Shown here piece after piece: positions 4,250 through 61,762 of a stretch of 64,000 bases of DNA. The notes beneath the pieces are model-generated. The model did not search any database, had not been told where the DNA came from, and saw nothing but the letters and a program-made list of their open reading frames with translations. This stretch comes from the human T2T-CHM13v2.0 reference genome, Homo sapiens. Each line of letters begins with the position of its first letter. The first letter of the stretch is position 1. The stretch lies in assembly GCF_009914755.1 (NCBI RefSeq), contig NC_060933.1. One strand, written 5' to 3'. The translations under genes were made by a program, and so were the position numbers.

Positions 4250-4291
<42 letters not shown>
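4250..4291. repeat. (GT)n microsatellite
   Basis: Uninterrupted run of about 21 GT units. Confidence 0.98.
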
Positions 4292-4294
<3 letters not shown>

Positions 4295-4984
4295 GGGCAT
4301 ACACTATTATGAACATTTCTATTTGAACACAGGAATTTTGATATTTTATATGTTTTTTTCTGAAATTGTGTCTTAGTGATTAATTATTGCATTATGTTTT
4401 AGCCCAATACCCTGCTTAGCAATTGTAAGTATATTCATCAGAATTGTGGGATATGATTTGGAAAGACAGATGGATATATTACCAGTCAATATGCATAGGT
4501 TTTATTTACCTCAATTGGTTTGTCTTCAGATCCTCATGTCTGCTCTCAGCTCAATCTTGTTTCTCTTCGTTCAGATCTTTTCAGCTTCCATATTTGCAGA
4601 CAGTAATTCTCCAGTCTTCTGCTGGGGCAATAACCCTGATAGCACCGCTGCAGAGGGTTTTCCAAGTGTACCTATATGTGTTTTAACAATCCTTCTGTTT
4701 ACAGTCTCACATTGTACTGTTTCTTTCAGAAACAACCAAGGCCTGTAGTTCCTGAGGCTCTGGAGTTCCTCAAACAAAATTATGATTTCCCTCGTTTCAT
4801 TAAATACAATCCAGCTTCATCTGCTTTCATAACTTGGTTACCATTTGTCCATCACTTTACCATCTTCCAAACTTTGTTGACACTTTCTCTGTTCTCTTTG
4901 CATTGCAGATGCACCCATTCTTTTTTCTTTTACTTCCTTTTACTGGGGAGCAGAAGTATACATGTGTGTCTAAAAAGATTGTTT

Positions 4985-4986
<2 letters not shown>

Positions 4987-5015
<29 letters not shown>
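4987..5015. repeat. (GT)n microsatellite
   Basis: GT run directly beside the 3' end of an antisense L1MA. Confidence 0.95.
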
Positions 5016-5665
5016 GTAAAAACAGTTAAGTGGGAGCTATCCTCAACAAACTTTTAGTGCACCACACAATATTGTTAAATATAGACACAATGCTGTACTG
5101 AGAATCTCTAGCACTTATTTATCTTGTTAACTGAAACATTATGCCAGTTGAGGAGCAACTCCCCATTTCTTCTGTTTTCTAGCTCCTGGCAACCAGAATT
5201 CTACTCTTATATCAGTTTGACTGCTTTAAATGCCTTGTAAAAAGGAAATCATGCAGTATTTGTCCTTCTGTTACTGACTTAGTTCACTTAGCTTAATGTT
5301 TTCCAGGTTCATTCATATTGCCTTTTATAGCATGATTCTCATCTTTTTAAAAGCTGGAATATCATTCCCTTGTAGCATACACTGCATTTTATTTATCCAT
5401 TCAACCGTCATTGGACATTTGGATTGTTTCTACCTATTGGCTATGGTGAATAATGCTTCAATGAACATGGGAGTGCCAATATCTCTCCAATATCCTGATT
5501 TTAATTCTTATGGATGTATACCCACCATTGGAACTACTGGATCAACTGATAGTTCAATTTTTAATTTTTTGAACTAATGATTAGGTTTCTAATGATTAGT
5601 TATGTTGAGCATATTTCATATGCTTATTGGCCATTTATATGTCTTCTTTGGAGAAATGTCTATAC
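5016..5665 (-). mobile_element. L1MA9/MA10-like 3' end
   Basis: Antisense L1MA 3' UTR motifs (CTCCTGGCAACCAGAATTCTACTC; ATCATGCAGTATTTGTCCTTCTG; TTCTTTGGAGAAATGTCTAT). Confidence 0.8.
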
Positions 5666-16442: not shown

Positions 16443-17232
16443 TTTTATTTTCTATTTACTTATTTTTTTAATGTACACAGTGTTTATTGGTTTTTTAGAT
16501 TTTTAGAATCAACTGGTGAACAAAGCATGAAAGCCTTATGTTTATAAGACAGTATATAAAAATGATCAACTCTGACAGTATAAAATTTAAGGTATGGCTG
16601 AGAGAAACTAATCTATTATCTGAAAACAATAGACCAAGAAATGGATAGACAAGAGATTGCAAGTTAGAGAGGCAAACAACAGAAAACTAAAAATAACAAT
16701 GTAACTGTGAAAATTTAGCTGATGATATAGTGTCAGTCAGCTAAAGCCTTGTGTTTCATGGCAAGCAGTCAATAGAGCCTCAGTTGAATATCAACATAGA
16801 GATGTAAGGACGCCATGTAGAATGAGGGTGCTAGCCACCAGAAGAACAAAATGCAGAAATGCTGAAAGGTGGTGGCCTCTGGGACTATGGGTAGGACAAG
16901 GGAATGGAGTGGATGATTTTTGTTTTAATAGTATGCCCTTCTCGACCATGCGTATTCTGAGAAACAGTTTTAATGCTTTAAATGAATAAATTAAAATGTT
17001 GAATTGTGAATACATTCATGTTCTGAAAACCAGATATGAAAACATGCTGATAGTGAAAAGCAGTTTTTTAAGCAATCAAGACAGGAGGGTATTCAGCATC
17101 TGTCATGCATTTGTCATCAGGTTCCAGAATGGTGGTCTCGCCAGAGGGTGGGAACAGTTGCTTCCTCATTAGTACTTCCAGCCCCAAAATTAAACATAAG
17201 CTTACCGTGGATATGAAGTATTAGTTTGATGG

Positions 17233-17268
<36 letters not shown>

Positions 17269-46428: not shown

Positions 46429-46638
46429 CCTTCGGCCAATATGGCGAAACCATATTTGTAAAAATGCAAAATACAAAAATTAGCTCGGTGTGTTGGCAGG
46501 CGCCTGTAATCCCAGCTACTCAGGAGGCTGAGGTAGAAGAATCGCTTGAGTCTGGGAGGTGGAGGTTGCAGTGAGCCAAGATCACGCCACTGCACTCCAG
46601 CCTGGGAAACAGAGCGAGACTCCATCTCAAAAAAAAAA
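46429..46638 (+). mobile_element. 5'-truncated AluS
   Basis: Begins in the middle of the left arm; TSD GAAGATAATTTTATCC / GAAGGTAATTTTATTC. Confidence 0.92.
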
Positions 46639-48109
46639 GGAAGGTAATTTTATTCTGGTGTCTTAAATCCTTTTCTACTCCAGTGGCAACCTGATTGTAG
46701 TGCCTTCTCCATTCCTGGAGCTTTTCCAAAAGCAGATCGAGACATCCCTAAGCAAATTCTCGTCTGCACGAAGGCTATTATTTCTGCTACTACTTGTCAT
46801 GAATCATGTTTGTTGTGCTTTGATCTGGATTCCTATTTGATGTTGGCTATAAGAAGGCTGAAGTACCATCTCTAAGTTTATCAAGACCTAGGTCATAGTT
46901 TCTATTATCTCTCAGAAGCCGATATGAAACTTGTAAAAGGTGGCTTCTTGGAATTATCATGCCGTATTTAGAGGCATTAATGATTCAGTGCCAAAGCATA
47001 GCTGTTTCTGCTTGATTTTTTAAAGTCTCATAGGTTTTTCTTCAGAACAGAGGACTTCATTCACTTACTATACTTCTGGTATTGCACTCTGCTATCTCAC
47101 ATATAATTTAATTTATAAAGTGGCTTTTACTCACATATCAATGCCATCTTCTCTCCCTATATCTCAAGTGTATGTCTACATGTCATAGGACAATCTAAAA
47201 TTGGTTGTGTACTATAGTCAGAAGAATCTTTCTTTTCCTACACTGAAGCATTGTCTTAAGCCAGTGTTCACATATGTTAAAACTTACTTTGATATAAGTC
47301 TTTTCCACATGTTTCCACAGTCCTAATGAGAAGTGGTAGCTGTGTCCTCAACACAAGCCCAAGTATGTTTATTCCTGGGGAAAATATACCTCAGATTTCC
47401 AAACCAAGATCTGTGCTCACTTGTGGTTATTATATGAAATTGTATTTGTAATATACAGAGTTGGGAGATGGATGATAGAAATGTTCCTGATCCTATCATC
47501 CATCTTATCATCTCCAATAGAACATGTCCAAATCCATGTCAAAGTCTTATGACTGAAAAATGCCTTTTAATTCCTGGAAAGCAGACATACACATAATTTC
47601 ATGTCTTAATCCACTTTCTACTTCCTTATAAATTACTTCTAATTGTAACTCATTTCTCAAATAAGGAACTCAGATTTTTATTATTTCTTGTAAGTTAGCA
47701 ACTCCTAATATAAGACAAAACAGTCTTATGAATGTGTAATTAACATAGGTATTTTTACTCAAGAGATAGTGATGGGAGCTATGATTTAATCCATTAAATA
47801 ATATTGTAAAAATGGTTTTACAAGAGGCTTTTAGAACTTCTTGCATCTTAAAAATTCTCTCAATATACCTCACTGAAGTGATATCATCTTCCAGCCATGA
47901 TTTATGCACACACTCTCTTTTTCACTAATATTAAATATTTTGTCTGTATTCCTTAAACTTCATTTTCTTTCACCTGGATTGCCTAGGGAAATCCAATTTG
48001 TCTACAATACTATGAAGGCAAATTGATTTACTCTACTTCATGAATTGGCATCAGCCATCATCCAGTTTCTTAGTACCTTCCATTTATCTTGATTACTCTC
48101 AAGTTACTT

Positions 48110-48304
48110 ATATAAACAAAAATTGTTTCATTTTTTATTTCACTTCCAGTAGTAACTCTTTTGGACATACTTAGCCTAATTTTGTTTAATATACTCTAAC
48201 ATTGTGTATTGTAGCTATATAAAAAGAGAACCGTAGATATTAAAGAGATCATTGGTGCCCAGAAATGTTAGGAAATTACACACACACACACACACGCACA
48301 CACA

Positions 48305-48337
<33 letters not shown>

Positions 48338-48467
48338 CTTTTTCTCACAGAGATTTTATTTATTTTGAGACGGAGTCTCACTCTGTCACCCAGGCTAGAG
48401 TGCAACGGCACTAACTGGGCTCACTGCAACCTCCGCTTCCTGAGTTCAAGCGATTCTCCTACTTCCA
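48110..48467 (+). repeat. Left arm of near-perfect inverted duplication
   Basis: Reverse complement of 49338-49686; includes unique DNA, a (CA)n tract and the 3' part of an Alu. Confidence 0.96.
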
Positions 48468-48646
48468 CCTCCTGAGTAGCTGGGATTACAGGCACTTGCC
48501 ACCACTCCCAGCTAATTTTTGTATTTTTAGTAGAGACGGGGTTTCACCATGTTGGTCAGGCTGGTCTCGAACTCCTGACCTCGTGATCTGCCCACCTCAG
48601 CCTCCCAAAGTGCTGATATTACAGGTGTAACCCACCATGCCCAGCC
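48354..48646 (-). mobile_element. AluS (Sg-like)
   Basis: Full antisense Alu with CTCGAACTCCTGACCTCGTGATC. Confidence 0.95.
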
Positions 48647-49337
48647 TATTTTTGTAAATGTTTAAGCTTTAGAAAGACATATTATATATTATCTTTTTCC
48701 TCTGACCATGCAAACACTCTAGATGGTTGGTTACAGAATATCAGAAGATATTGAAAAGTGAGGTTAAGAGAAAATTGTGAATCTTATAGCAAAATGATAA
48801 GAAACCAGTTGACTTATCCTTTTATAACCAGTCAAAACTGGTTGCCATGGTGTTCTTTTCTTCTTAAAAAAAAAAGACTGTAAAATAATAAAAGATACTA
48901 GGATATTTGGAAATAAGTCACCAACTTTTTAATTATGCACGAGCACTATTTTTTCTTCCTCTTAAGAACATTTGTAAGTGACTTTTAGCACTTGCATTTT
49001 TTTCTCCTGTAAAGTTTCTAATTCCTAATAACAAATAATAACTGCACTTTTCTTTGTAAGAAGATAGGCCCAACTTTATTGACACAAGATGCTTTCAGAG
49101 ATATGTTGGCTTTGCCTAACTGAAGTAGTTAGTAATATGATTTCACATGCATTTTTCTAAAGAAGTTTTTTTAAATTTCAAATAATCTATAATAGGTAGA
49201 ATATGAATCTTTTTTGGACTAAGCTGTGTAGATAGTTGGGAAGAAAAACCTGGTTATACGGCTGAGAATGAGAGGGAATTCAAGTAATAGGCACATGGTT
49301 TCATAAGGTTAGATAAATCTGAAAAGCCAGATCCATA

Positions 49338-49487
49338 TGGAAGTAGGAGAATCGCTTGAACTCGGGAAGCGGAGGTTGCAGTGAGCCCAGTTAGTGCCGT
49401 TGCACTCTAGCCTGGGTGACAGAGTGAGACTCCGTCTCAAAATAAATAAAATCTCTGTGAGAAAATGTGTGTGTGTGTGTGTGTCTG

Positions 49488-49518
<31 letters not shown>

Positions 49519-49686
49519 AATTTCCTAACATTTCTGGGCACCAATGATCTCTTTAATATCTACGGTTCTCTTTTTATATAGCTACAATACACAATGTTAG
49601 AGTATATTAAACAAAATTAGGCTAAGTATCTCCAAAAGAGTTACTACTGGAAGTGAAATAAAAAATGAAACAATTTTTGTTTATAT
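49338..49686 (-). repeat. Right arm of inverted duplication (partial Alu copy plus (TG)n)
   Basis: Carries the same private Alu variants as the 48354 Alu (GAGCCCAGTTAGTGCCGTTGCACTCTAGCC) and the same unique flank. Confidence 0.96.
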
Positions 49687-52514
49687 TAGGTTTTTTATAT
49701 AAAAATCCCAGTTGACATTGAATCCTGTATACCAAGATTCATAGAAATTTTAAAAATCAGTAATGATGAAAAGATATTATTTGGATTCAAATGCATTCTT
49801 AAAAGATACATCTTTCCAAAAAATGATGAAGCATGAATGAAATCGAGTTCACATATAAAAGGTGAAGATGAAGCAAAGTTTCGAAGCAATCTCTTTCCAT
49901 GAGATTACAATTCCTAAGGAGATACTAGGAGCACCATGCATATCTGTCTTCACATTTTCAGTACCATAAAACTGCTATGAAAGAATGAACAGCAGAGTCT
50001 ATGTGATAGGAGAAAGCCTGTTTCCACTGGCCATTCTGAATATGGGGATTCCAAAAGTTCACCTTAGCTAAATAAACAATTCTCTCCCCAGTTGTTCCTC
50101 AGCAAGTATTTAGTTATAAGGAACAGAATCCACCCAAGCTGAGGTAAGTATAATAAGAGAATGTGTTTGAAAACTACAAGAGGATTGTCATACAGAAGCA
50201 AAGTAAGTACAAGTTCTTAAGAAGAACTGGAGCCAACTCCAGCCCATTCTTTGCTGAACTTGAATAAAGGAGAAATACAGCCATTTCAGCCTAGTATTTA
50301 AATTAATTCCTAGGTTTTAATAGTTAGAAACAAACTGAATTTTATAGGTTGAAAATCTAAATTTCTGAGGAGGCAATCTTATTTGATCCGATTGAACCAG
50401 AGGTCTATCCCTAGTCCAGTCATTTGTGTACTAAGGGTTCAGAAAGGTGAACATTTCTGAAAGGCAGGCAGACAGCAAAGCTGGGTGTGGTAAGAATTTT
50501 TCAGAGAAGTTAGTAAAAGAATCTCGGGCATTACCAATCAGAGTGTAGAAGAAAATCTGTTTTCTTTATAATAAGCGTTTATAAGGTAGGGGATACTGAT
50601 GGGACCTGAGATGATTTGATAAAAATCCCAACACAGAGAAACTCTGTATCTGTTCGGCAATGAACACAGAGGTCTCTTTAAGAACAAAGGCACACAGAGT
50701 GTGTTGGTGCCTGTTTGTGAGGGGAAGACAGGCACCTTGTTCTGTCCTAGTGGTCTGGTTCTCAGAACTTAGCATCTTCCACATATTTTTGTTTAACAGA
50801 ACCATAAGTCTATGCTAGCACACAAAAATGCAAAACAACGACCTGCCGCCCTTAACATCTTTCAAATTACTGCTGGCTTCCCGGCAGCACTGACAGCTCT
50901 GGCTGCCTCAGAGAACGTAGTTAGGGACTCAAACCTTGAGAACTACAGCACATTGCGGTGACATTTGACCTTGTTCCCATCACTTGGAGATTGCTAAAAG
51001 GAATTCCCCAACCATTTGTCCTACATGCTGAATAGTGTTGTTAGAATGGTATTCATGGACTTTGGAGAGGATAACTAAATGTAGGTTCCATATGCCAAAT
51101 ATAGCCTGGCACCAGCTGGTTATAAATCTGTTCTCATCTCTCTGAGTAAGTTCTTTTTAAAATTCATGACTTAAAATAATCCCTTTTATAGTGTGCATGT
51201 GTGTGGATTCATTTACATTTTCACTAAAAATCTCAGTATTTATTTCCCTAATATAAACTATATTATTTAAAAAATAAAAAGTAGCATAAAATATATATAC
51301 TGCAGAGGGTATTTCTGATATTCAGTCCTGAGCTGTCATTGTATTGCTTAAACTCAGACCCAATTCCAGGAGAGACTGGGCAGGTGGTATGCAAAATAAA
51401 AAGGGTCATGCTTTTCCCAGAAATTTTTCTTTTCTGAGTCCAAGATAACTGGTCTAAGCTTATTTGAGCAATCTTCTTTTAGTTGAGTTTTCTCCTAGGA
51501 AATTTATTGGGTTATAGATAAAATATGAAGGAAGCATCATGTTAAAAGAAAATCTGTTAAATATTGATACATAAACAATGCTGCTTTGAAAACTACCCAA
51601 AAGAATGTAACCCACAAGGGAGGATACAATCTTTTGTTTCTCACTTCAGAACACGGGGAGTCTATATTCCTTTTTTCCAGAAAAAAATGACCACAGACCA
51701 TCAGTGATGGTACAGGCCCTGAGGATGAAGAGGTGCCCAGTCCCATTAGCAACAATGCCTGTTGTGGCAGCACATTTATTAGTAGGAAAAAGGGGCTCAA
51801 AAGAAAGAACAGAGATTCAAGAATTTAATATCACACAGCTAATAGAGAGCAAAGTTAAGCTTCGAAACATATTCTGTTGACTCCATAAGCCATCCCAACA
51901 TTAACAAAACTTGACAAGTCTTCACAAAATTTCTGAAAAAAGTAGGAAGAACATTAATTTTGTCACAGGAGATTAGTTTTAGCTCTAATGTTTCCTTTTG
52001 GGTAACCTCAGGCAAGTTTCTAAGCCATGTATTGGTTTTATTGTTTTCTAGTTCATTTCCCAATAGCTATGAAAATAATGTAAGACTAACACAGTTCATC
52101 CATGTTAAATACTACAAATATATTAAGTTGTGAACCTAAGTAGTACTGGTTAAAATAATAAGCTAAACAAGAAATGCCAAAATAGGAAGAAAATGGGGAC
52201 AGAGATGGTAAATGCTATCTCCTCGTTTGGGGACTTTATGTTAGCCATGAATTTGCCTTCTCACTCTGTTATTTTTGATGCTGAGGACATTTGACTCATT
52301 ATGGACAAGTCTGAGGCTACATGTGATGCTGTGTTTCTGTGGCATAGTCATTAAAACATTTCTGACCAAAAGAAAAAATAATGATTTTTTAATGAGTCTT
52401 CAGAAAGAAGTAAAGGCATGTTTATTTTTTTCAGAATACATTTAATAGCAGTGTATAATAAGCACCAAGGATTTAAATTTGGGCTTATGCTTACAAGGAG
52501 CAAGAACTCGTAAC

Positions 52515-56745: not shown

Positions 56746-57999
56746 TAAAAAGAGAATAGAATCAATTCCATAAGTTGTAGAAGTTATGGGGTCCCCAAAA
56801 AAAGAGAACAAAAGGAAATGATGATCAAGTCCTACTTAATATTTTAGTATTTGCAAATATAAACTACAAATGAGATTGGAGATTTAACTAAACAATATTT
56901 AGTTAGAATCTGTAATTTTTATTCTGTAGTTAAAATGTGTTATTCACTTAAATTTGTTGCATAGATGGATTACAAGGATTAAGATTGAAAGAAGTGTATT
57001 AGGCAGAAGAAGGAATATTATTAGAAATTTGGAAAGGAAATGTTCGCAATTGCCATTTTGAACTCTTATTCTGAGAATTTAATTTAAAAGTGAACCATGA
57101 TTTAGAAAATCCAGCAATGTGTTGGGCACCTATCTTGGTAATTTCCTCATTTGAAGTAATGCAGAGATGTTTTTGGTTTAATTGGGTTTAAATAAACTGC
57201 AATACGCCGCAAAGGGCATCCACTTTTGTTTAAAGGGGGACTAAAAATAAGTATATTTTTAACTAAAAACAAACTGTTATTTCTAGTAATTTTGGACATA
57301 TTCAACTTTTTAAAATAGTTCCCTGATAGGAGAGTCAATGCTTTATGTTTTCCCTACAAAATATTGTGTGAGACAGTGATTTTCTCTGATACACAATTTG
57401 TTTCTTAGATATATTTATCAATAACTTTTGAAAGTACCCTGAGATTTGTATTCTGTTTACTGCTTTAGAGCACTAACAAAATTGTTTCCTTTGGAGTAAT
57501 TCTGTTTTATTGATGTATTAAAAATGTGGTGCAGGCTAATGTGGAGAATTTGGTCTGCCACTTTAAATCAATAGTGATCTATAGAACTATATGAGGTCAA
57601 GCACTGTTCAGCCTACCCTTGCAACAAATCATAATGTCACATTAAGTACTTACAGAGTGTTATTAACCAAAGAAAACCTCCTGCGGAAAGAAGATGTTTA
57701 TTGAAGGTAGCATACGGAAAGCTCTATAGGAAGATATTCAAAAATATTGCATCAGAACAGAGATCTAATGCAGCGGGAGACAGAAAACTGGAATAATAAA
57801 TAATACCAGGTTTTATTGGTTATCATGATAATGTTTGTATTTTTTAGAAAGACATTTATTTTTAGAGAGAAAAAGGAAAAATATCATCTTCTTACTCAGA
57901 GAAGTTCACGAATCTGAATAAGTAAATGTGTCTTTTGTTCCCTAGTCGACTATCAGAATCACTTCTCTCATTTAGAATTTTTTAAAATAAAGGGAAAAA

Positions 58000-58002
<3 letters not shown>

Positions 58003-58042
<40 letters not shown>
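58003..58042. repeat. (GT)20 microsatellite
   Basis: Pure GT run. Confidence 0.98.
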
Positions 58043-58043
<1 letters not shown>

Positions 58044-58130
58044 TGCATGGAGTCAAAATGAGATTGGACTGATAATTTATCAAAATATTTCTTTGTGTAA
58101 ATGTAATTTACTATGTCTGTTATTTTAATT

Positions 58131-61622: not shown

Positions 61623-61657
<35 letters not shown>

Positions 61658-61762
61658 TGTGTGTGTGAGAGAGAGAGAGAGGAAGGAAGGAAGGAAGGGC
61701 ACGAGAGAGATTGAGAGAGAGAGGGGAAGGAAGGAAGGAAGGAAGGAAATAAGGAAATAAGG
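61623..61762. repeat. Compound (GT)n-(GA)n-(GGAA)n microsatellite
   Basis: GT run, GA run, then (GGAA)4 and (GGAA)6. Confidence 0.95.

What the first reader, a model, noticed from the sequence alone, without database searches (positions are those of the whole stretch)
48110..49686. Recent near-perfect ~350-bp inverted duplication flanking an 870-bp spacer
Seen: 48110-48467 is the reverse complement of 49338-49686. By eye I find only two substitutions (GGACATAC/GGAGATAC; TTCCTGAG/TTCCCGAG) plus length differences at the (CA)n tract and its edge. The right arm holds only the last ~110 bp of the 48354 Alu, with its private variants, so it is a DNA-level copy rather than a second retroinsertion. 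Its inner junction sits in the palindrome CCATATGG (49333-49340). Inference: a replication template-switch product. The arms could mediate recurrent inversion of the spacer, be homogenised by gene conversion, and form a long dsRNA stem (ADAR substrate) if transcribed.
Basis: partly seen in the sequence, partly recalled or inferred. Interest (0 to 1): 0.8.

Follow-up and report, generated by a model that had tools for sequence, protein, structure and literature searches.

The report
Small local inverted duplication, gene desert
A 355-base piece of human chromosome 9 was copied backwards 870 bases from its source, most likely by a one-off DNA copying error a few million years ago, and nothing here suggests it has a function.

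Summary
48107-48467 is the reverse complement of 49338-49689, with an 870-bp spacer. The arms differ by 2 substitutions, 1 mismatch at the outer edge, one 3-bp indel and two run-length changes in the (CA)n tract. The non-repeat part of the arm occurs exactly twice in the T2T genome, as the two arms. The copied unit joins unique DNA, a microsatellite, and the A-tail and last 101 bp of an old Alu, so it is a DNA-level copy and not a retroinsertion.

The best reading is a single switch-and-return copying error, either a replication template switch or fold-back-primed repair synthesis. Two ancestral states give the same product: insertion of an inverted copy, or a 1.2-kb inversion with a one-sided duplication. 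I could not separate them without ape sequence.

Divergence suggests about 3-7 Myr (95% interval 0.4-24), so "recent" is relative. A 41-genome T2T inversion table has no call here. The arms would form a ~340-bp RNA stem, but no transcript is annotated over them.

This is an ordinary member of a known class of structural change. Interest is low.

The parts
48107..48467 (+). Left arm (361 bp). It runs on into the rest of the Alu at its inner end. Contents: unique DNA 48107-48277; (CA)n 48278-48336; 17-bp flank 48337-48353; T-rich run, which is the Alu A-tail on the minus strand, 48354-48366; last 101 bp of the Alu 48367-48467.
48468..49337 (.). Spacer (870 bp). 48468-48650 is the remaining 5' part of the same minus-strand Alu. 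48651-49337 is single-copy DNA.
49338..49689 (-). Right arm (352 bp), the reverse complement of the left arm. The Alu piece stops abruptly at 49338 against non-Alu spacer DNA.
49332..49341 (.). 10-bp palindrome TCCATATGGA across the spacer/right-arm junction (49337|49338). It could reflect a 4-bp TCCA/TGGA inverted microhomology with the left-arm end at 48464-48467, if the ancestral site already carried TGGA.
   Evidence: 1.8% of junctions in the window lie inside a palindrome of >=10 bp; as a hairpin it is negligible, -0.5 kcal/mol
49692..49705 (.). 14-bp A/T palindrome TTTTTATATAAAAA, starting 3 bp outside the right arm. It shares TTATATAA with the outer end of the left arm (48108-48115).
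   Evidence: 3.1% of junctions lie within 3 bp of a palindrome of >=10 bp; hairpin -2.1 kcal/mol
48108..48115 (.). 8-bp palindrome TTATATAA at the outer end of the left arm. It is spoiled in the right arm by the edge mismatch.

Best explanation
This is a genuine, single-locus inverted micro-duplication. A 355-bp stretch was copied at the DNA level in reverse orientation and placed 870 bp to its right. The stretch holds 171 bp of unique DNA, a (CA)n tract, a short flank, and the A-tail and last 101 bp of an old Alu.

The copy arose in one switch-and-return synthesis error. A growing 3' end left its template near 49337, primed on the opposite-sense strand at the Alu breakpoint (48467), copied back to 48107, and rejoined at 49690. 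The end could have been at a stalled fork or at a resected break that folded back on itself. In the four-point template-switch model this is type 3-2-1-4. In structural-variant terms it is an inverted interspersed duplication.

Shown: the structure, its uniqueness, its DNA-level origin and its later decay (2 substitutions, a 3-bp indel, microsatellite slippage). Inferred: the copying mechanism, the direction (left arm as source), and an age of roughly 3-7 Myr. No function is indicated. The arms are a passive by-product that could pair in RNA or recombine, but neither is seen.
For: - Near-identity over a composite unit: 2 substitutions in 296 non-microsatellite columns, and shared GC...AG interruptions in the CA tract.
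- Only two copies in 3.1 Gb. The flanks and the spacer are single-copy.
- The Alu is intact across 48467|48468 but truncated at 49338, so the spacer|right-arm junction is new.
- No target-site duplication.
- At the 48441 column the right arm keeps a CpG. The 8 other window Alus show CG, TG or CA in 6 of 8 (C followed by G in 1, T in 3, C followed by A in 2). This fits one copy made from a CpG-bearing source, followed by CpG decay in the left arm.
- Published classes match. The four-point model type that creates an inverted repeat makes up 31% of human-chimp events (PMC5453318, passages). Switch sites are enriched for AT-rich and poly(dA:dT) DNA (PMC7954356, passages), and T6 and A5 runs flank 49690. 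Fold-back duplications have spacers of 766-70,466 bp and 2-8 bp of inverted microhomology in 13 of 21 junctions (PMC3907307, section 8); 870 bp lies in that range.
- Junctions lie in or beside palindromes more often than the background rates of 1.8-8.4%.
Against: - No ancestral allele was available, so neither the direction of copying nor the ancestral order is shown.
- If nothing was lost at the target, both new junctions have 0 bp of microhomology. That looks more like end-joining than microhomology-primed synthesis.
- The copy (355 bp) and its range (about 1.2-1.6 kb) are far larger than the tens of bp in the published short template-switch sets.
- The palindrome statistics are post hoc. 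The palindromes are too weak to fold: -0.5 to -2.1 kcal/mol, and 11, 99 and 72 of 200 shuffles fold at least as well.
- The age rests on 2-3 events and on mutation rates recalled from memory, and gene conversion could make it an underestimate.
Confidence: 0.5

Rival explanations
1. Inversion with a one-sided inverted duplication (INVdup/dupINV; four-point type 1-3-4-2). The ancestor read: left flank, inverted spacer, right arm, right flank. A 1,225-bp block (right arm plus spacer) was copied or rejoined in reverse, and the right arm was then used a second time. On this reading the right arm is the original and the left arm plus spacer is the flipped segment. The mechanism is either switch-and-return synthesis or staggered breaks with fill-in.
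For: - The final structure is identical to what is observed. The Alu stays contiguous across arm and spacer, and the spacer|right-arm junction is new under both readings (reasoning).
- The four-point type that creates an inverted repeat with an inverted spacer is 23% of human-chimp events, against 31% for the plain type (PMC5453318).
- Inversions flanked by copy-number changes were 77.2% of complex structural variants in PMC5338099 (passage).
- Junction microhomology is 0-1 bp, no worse than for the insertion model.
Against: - It needs a longer reverse copy (1,225 nt against 355 nt).
- It needs a return point inside sequence that was already copied.
- Nothing in the sequence favours it. The flanks carry no repeat that could show which outer junction is old.
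Confidence: 0.33
2. Non-replicative break-and-join. A copy of the fragment was captured at a double-strand break 870 bp away and ligated by non-homologous end joining, with no templated switch at the junctions.
For: Microhomology is 0 bp at both junctions under a no-loss ancestor, and there is no target-site duplication.
Against: - The source is retained, so a copy still had to be synthesised or taken from the sister chromatid.
- Microhomology cannot be scored without the ancestral allele.
- A 4-bp TCCA/TGGA overlap is possible if TGGA pre-existed at the target.
Confidence: 0.1
3. Assembly artefact. The right arm was created by a chimeric or palindromic read or by a mis-join.
For: None found. 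It is listed only because reads could not be inspected.
Against: The arms differ by substitutions, a 3-bp indel and microsatellite lengths, and they are separated by 870 bp of unique DNA. Read-level palindrome artefacts would give perfect, adjacent arms (general knowledge).
Confidence: 0.03
4. A functional element: an invertible segment that flips by recombination between the arms, or a transcribed long hairpin that serves as an ADAR or small-RNA substrate.
For: - As RNA the locus folds with 348 (+ strand) or 337 (- strand) arm-to-arm pairs. The minimum free energy is -831 kcal/mol, against -203 for the spacer alone.
- Template switching is reported to create RNA hairpins and miRNAs (abstract starts of PMC8794818 and 10.1101/2023.04.19.537475 in the listing).
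Against: - No annotated transcript covers it. The nearest is a predicted lncRNA that ends 5.7 kb away (hub annotation).
- There is no inversion call within 196 kb among the 20 chr9 rows (widths 325 bp to 1.59 Mb) of the T2T inversion table.
- The longest perfect identity tract is 128 bp. NAHR inversions in PMC6748972 used repeats of 654 bp to 24.2 kb.
Confidence: 0.04

Closest known systems
Template-switch mutations under the four-point model (Loytynoja & Goldman 2017, PMC5453318; Walker et al. 2021, PMC7954356)
   Same: [quoted passage not shown] Types 3-2-1-4 and 1-3-4-2 give exactly this layout. The junction context is AT-rich with poly(dA:dT) runs.
   Different: The published events involve tens of bp within one fork. 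Here the copy is 355 bp and the range is about 1.2-1.6 kb. The authors state that they do not model long-range switches.
Complex structural-variant classes dupINV/INVdup and interspersed duplication (iDUP) (Collins et al. 2017, PMC5338099)
   Same: Same topology: either an inversion with a flanking inverted duplication, or an inverted duplicate placed nearby. The paper proposes MMBIR/FoSTeS or repair of simultaneous breaks.
   Different: Those events were detected at multi-kilobase resolution as polymorphic or de novo variants. This one is about 1.6 kb in total, of unknown frequency, and partly decayed.
Fold-back inverted duplications with a disomic spacer (Hermetz et al. 2014, PMC3907307)
   Same: A single-copy spacer lies between the direct and inverted copies. 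The 870-bp spacer falls in the reported range of 766-70,466 bp. A short inverted homology at the spacer boundary is possible.
   Different: Those duplications are large, terminal, and form dicentric chromosomes with a terminal deletion. Here the synthesis stopped after 355 nt and rejoined the same chromosome.
Inverted repeats that drive recurrent NAHR inversions (Giner-Delgado et al. 2019, PMC6748972; Porubsky et al. 2023, PMC10150506)
   Same: Highly identical inverted arms flank a short unique segment.
   Different: The arms are 355 bp with at most 128 bp of perfect identity, against 654 bp to 24.2 kb in that set. No inversion is called at this locus.

Membership tests
Four-point template-switch event that creates an inverted repeat | A fragment is present as a reverse-complement copy near its template. 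| tested here: met
Four-point template-switch event that creates an inverted repeat | An ancestral allele lacks the copy, so one event explains the whole difference. | not testable with these tools
   No ape or second human sequence was at hand. The genome search reports no relatives. Scans of other collections with the junction sequence found 0 matches.
Four-point template-switch event that creates an inverted repeat | Short range: the fragment and the distances are tens of bp. | tested here: not met
   355-bp copy and 870-bp spacer, against the scale described.
INVdup/dupINV complex inversion | The segment between the arms is inverted relative to the ancestor. | not testable with these tools
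   This needs an outgroup. No repeat spans either outer junction that could orient it.
Fold-back inverted duplication | A single-copy spacer lies between the direct and inverted copies. | tested here: met
   870 bp, single-copy outside its Alu part; published range.
Fold-back inverted duplication | Inverted microhomology at the boundary between spacer and duplication. | tested here: inconclusive
   0 bp if nothing was lost at the target; 4 bp (TCCA/TGGA) if the target already carried TGGA.
Fold-back inverted duplication | Large arms running to a terminal deletion or a dicentric chromosome. | tested here: not met
   The event is interstitial. Normal single-copy sequence resumes at 49690.
NAHR-competent inverted repeat of a polymorphic inversion | Both orientations are seen among human haplotypes. 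| tested here: not met
   0 of 20 chr9 rows in Table S1 of PMC10150506 overlap the locus; the nearest starts at 12,025,889. That table covers 41 genomes only.
Second Alu retroinsertion or L1 twin priming | Only element sequence is copied, with its own tail and a target-site duplication. | tested here: not met
   The copy includes 171 bp of unique DNA and the microsatellite. The longest direct word shared by the 20-bp flanks is 4 bp.
DNA transposon or MITE with terminal inverted repeats | Multiple copies in the genome, with a target-site duplication. | tested here: not met
   2 of 2 genome matches are the two arms. The flanks of the whole structure share no direct word.

The most novel reading that the evidence does not exclude
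This is a hominid-lineage template switch over a kilobase range, an intermediate scale between the published short switches and MMBIR-size rearrangements. In one step it created a locus able to form a ~340-bp near-perfect hairpin. That locus may be transcribed, for example by read-through from the lncRNA 5.7 kb away, and act as a long dsRNA source, or it may flip in some human haplotypes.
Probability: 0.06. Interest if true: 0.5.

Novelty: new member of a known kind. Interest (0 to 1): 0.2.

Why it matters
The locus is a clean example of a one-step inverted duplication at a scale of hundreds of bases. That scale lies between the well-catalogued short template switches and large complex rearrangements. 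All junctions are readable and sit in or beside short palindromes. With ape and pangenome data it could show which of the two known switch topologies operated, and whether microhomology was used. Beyond that it lies in a gene desert with no sign of function, so its wider importance is small.

Tried and rejected
- **Old repeats at the outer junctions.** I looked for interspersed repeats spanning either outer junction, to tell which is ancestral. Three genome searches returned only the locus itself and the other arm. A low-stringency BLAST against the rest of the window gave only matches of 32 nt or less with E >= 0.008.
- **Independent copies of the inner junction.** Scans of genome contigs and viral contigs, in case of contaminating human DNA, found 0 matches each.
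- **Retroinsertion, twin priming, transposon.** All rejected (see membership tests).
- **Small palindromes as fork-stalling hairpins.** Rejected on energy: -0.5 to -2.1 kcal/mol.
- **GC and AT skew as a clue to an inverted spacer.** Both ancestral orders give one smooth transition, so this is uninformative.
- **Lists of ape lineage-specific structural variants.** Another paper had no readable supplement. I cannot say whether this event is already listed there.
- **Whether the locus is in print.** The only locus-specific search was for the neighbouring lncRNA name. It found 1 paper, unrelated by its title. Searches were topic searches. I therefore make no claim that the locus is undescribed.

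Full report
**Observation.** The repeat finder returns two collinear inverted blocks: 48107-48330/49466-49689 (224 nt, 97%) and 48340-48467/49338-49465 (128 nt, 99%, 870 nt between the arms). A gapped local alignment joins them into one arm pair, 48107-48467 against 49689-49338. BLAST of the region against the window gives 48110-48467 against 49686-49338 with E = 4.9e-169. It is the only pair of at least 90% identity and 80 bp in the whole 64-kb window.

**Differences between the arms.**
- Two substitutions: 48166 C/G and 48441 T/C.
- One mismatch three bases from the outer end: 48109 T/A.
- One 3-bp indel at the edge of the CA tract.
- Two run-length changes in the tract. The left arm reads (AC)9 GC (AC)3 AG (AC)15 and the right arm reads (AC)12 GC (AC)3 AG (AC)9.
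- The shared GC...AG interruptions show that the microsatellite was copied, not grown twice.
- A 'mismatch' at 48317 is a register artefact inside the tract.

**What the copied unit is.**
- The left arm holds 171 bp of unique DNA, the (CA)n tract, a 17-bp flank, and the A-rich tail and last 101 bp of a full-length minus-strand Alu. The Alu runs on to 48650.
- The right arm stops abruptly inside the Alu, against non-Alu spacer DNA at 49338.
- Its Alu piece is 99% identical to the left copy, but matches other Alus of the window at 78-87%, and it carries the same private variants.
- The unique part of the arm has 2 of 2 genome-wide matches in the 3.1-Gb T2T assembly, both at this locus.
- The left flank, the right flank and the non-Alu spacer are single-copy.
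- There is no target-site duplication.
- The copy was therefore made from DNA, locally. It is not a second retroinsertion, L1 twin priming or a transposon.

**Direction of change at one site.** At the 48441 column the right arm has C followed by G. The eight other window Alus have C in 3 (once still followed by G, twice by A), T in 3 and A in 2. That is the usual picture of a decayed CpG, so I infer that the source still had the CpG when it was copied and that the left arm mutated afterwards.

**Age.** Two substitutions in 296 non-microsatellite columns give K = 0.0068. With assumed neutral rates of 1e-9 or 0.5e-9 per site per year this is 3.4 or 6.8 Myr, with 95% Poisson intervals of 0.4-12 and 0.8-24 Myr. 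The rates are recalled from memory, not taken from any call. Counting the edge mismatch gives 5-10 Myr. 'Recent' is therefore relative. The event may predate or postdate the human-chimpanzee split, and gene conversion would make it older than it looks.

**Mechanism.** Two ancestral orders lead to the observed structure.
1. The ancestor read left flank, left arm, spacer, right flank, and an inverted copy of the arm was inserted at 49337|49690.
2. The ancestor read left flank, inverted spacer, right arm, right flank, and a 1,225-bp block was reversed with the arm used twice.

- Both orders keep the Alu contiguous across arm and spacer, and both make the spacer|right-arm junction new.
- They correspond to two described outcomes of one switch-and-return event in the four-point template-switch model. 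One type creates an inverted repeat (31% of human-chimp events). The other creates an inverted repeat with an inverted spacer (23%) (passages of PMC5453318).
- They also correspond to the complex structural-variant classes iDUP and INVdup/dupINV (passage of PMC5338099).
- The geometry resembles fold-back priming at a resected break. Human fold-back duplications have single-copy spacers of 766-70,466 bp and 2-8 bp of inverted microhomology at 13 of 21 junctions (section 8 of PMC3907307). Here, though, synthesis stopped after 355 nt and the end rejoined the same chromosome.
- I could not separate the two orders. No outgroup sequence was available, and no old repeat spans either outer junction.
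- I give the insertion reading 0.5 and the inversion-with-duplication reading 0.33. The reasons are the shorter reverse copy and the 31:23 ratio.

**Junctions.**
- Under no-loss ancestors the microhomology is 0 bp at both junctions of the insertion model, and 0 and 1 bp in the inversion model. That would look like end-joining.
- Microhomology cannot be scored properly without the ancestral allele.
- The inner junction lies inside a 10-bp palindrome, TCCATATGGA (49332-49341). If the target already carried TGGA, the growing end would have had a 4-bp match to TCCA at the left-arm end (48464-48467).
- A 14-bp A/T palindrome starts 3 bp outside the right arm (49692-49705). It shares TTATATAA with the outer end of the left arm (48108-48115).
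- Background in this window: 1.8% of junctions lie inside a palindrome of at least 10 bp, 3.1% lie within 3 bp of one, and 8.4% lie within 3 bp of one of at least 8 bp.
- This is suggestive but post hoc.
- As hairpins the palindromes are negligible: -0.5 to -2.1 kcal/mol, and 11, 99 and 72 of 200 shuffles fold at least as well. If they mattered, it was as self-complementary microhomology, not as fork barriers.
- T6 and A5 runs at the right junction fit the reported enrichment of AT-rich and poly(dA:dT) DNA at switch sites (passages of PMC7954356).

- *Hairpin RNA.* As a single RNA the 1,583-nt locus folds with 348 (+ strand) or 337 (- strand) arm-to-arm pairs. The minimum free energy is -831 or -825 kcal/mol, against -203 or -192 for the spacer alone. 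As single-stranded DNA it forms 342 arm-to-arm pairs. The stem is real on paper. No transcript is annotated over it, and the nearest is a predicted lncRNA ending 5.7 kb away (hub annotation). The single paper naming that lncRNA is unrelated by its title. Editing could not be tested.
- *Recurrent inversion.* The longest perfect identity tract is 128 bp. I recall thresholds of about 200 bp for efficient mammalian homologous recombination, but no call here supports that figure. The NAHR inversions in PMC6748972 used repeats of 654 bp to 24.2 kb (one passage). In the T2T-coordinate inversion table of PMC10150506 (Table S1, 41 genomes), none of the 20 chr9 rows overlaps the locus. Those rows have widths of 325 bp to 1.59 Mb, and the nearest starts at 12,025,889. 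This argues against a common polymorphic inversion but does not exclude a rare one.
- *Instability from the repeats.* Distance and divergence between inverted repeats lower their capacity to cause rearrangements, except in long single-stranded DNA (abstract of PMC10164571).

**Context.** Inverted repeat pairs as such are common. 627,791 pairs of at least 200 bp and 80% identity are reported for T2T-CHM13, mostly Alu-sized, with a median identity of 84% (PMC11794170, sections 6 and 12). A near-identical, close-range pair containing non-repeat DNA is a small subset of these. I could not count that subset.

**Artefact.** I could not inspect reads. The arms differ by substitutions, an indel and microsatellite lengths, and they are separated by 870 bp of unique DNA. 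That is not what chimeric or palindromic read artefacts look like (general knowledge). I give this 0.03.

**Limits.** Published tables of ape lineage-specific structural variants could not be checked, and they may already list this event.

**Verdict.** This is a real but ordinary structure, a new member of a known kind. The template-switch reading is reasonable but unproven and has an equally known twin. The functional inferences have no support so far.

Noticed in passing
window 46468-46636 versus 48359-48527: A second Alu (46432-46648) lies in the opposite orientation to the 48354 Alu. The pair is 83% complementary over 169 nt with 1.7 kb between them, so this is an ordinary diverged inverted Alu pair next to the young duplication.
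   Followed up: no
window 48467|48468: The break inside the Alu falls directly beside the stretch of the right monomer that I recall as the conserved Alu 'core', which has been linked to rearrangement breakpoints. This is recalled from memory and was not tested in any call.
   Followed up: no
window 4250-4291, 4972-5019, 17230-17266, 57994-58046, 61623-61667: Five further (CA)n/(TG)n tracts in the window match the arm microsatellite at 89-100%. They are ordinary microsatellites and are not part of the duplication.
   Followed up: no
window 47350-48700 versus 49000-49750: GC skew changes sign across the locus, from about -0.2 to -0.3 on the left to about +0.2 on the right. Part of this simply reflects the inverted arms. 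It did not help to decide the ancestral order.
   Followed up: partly
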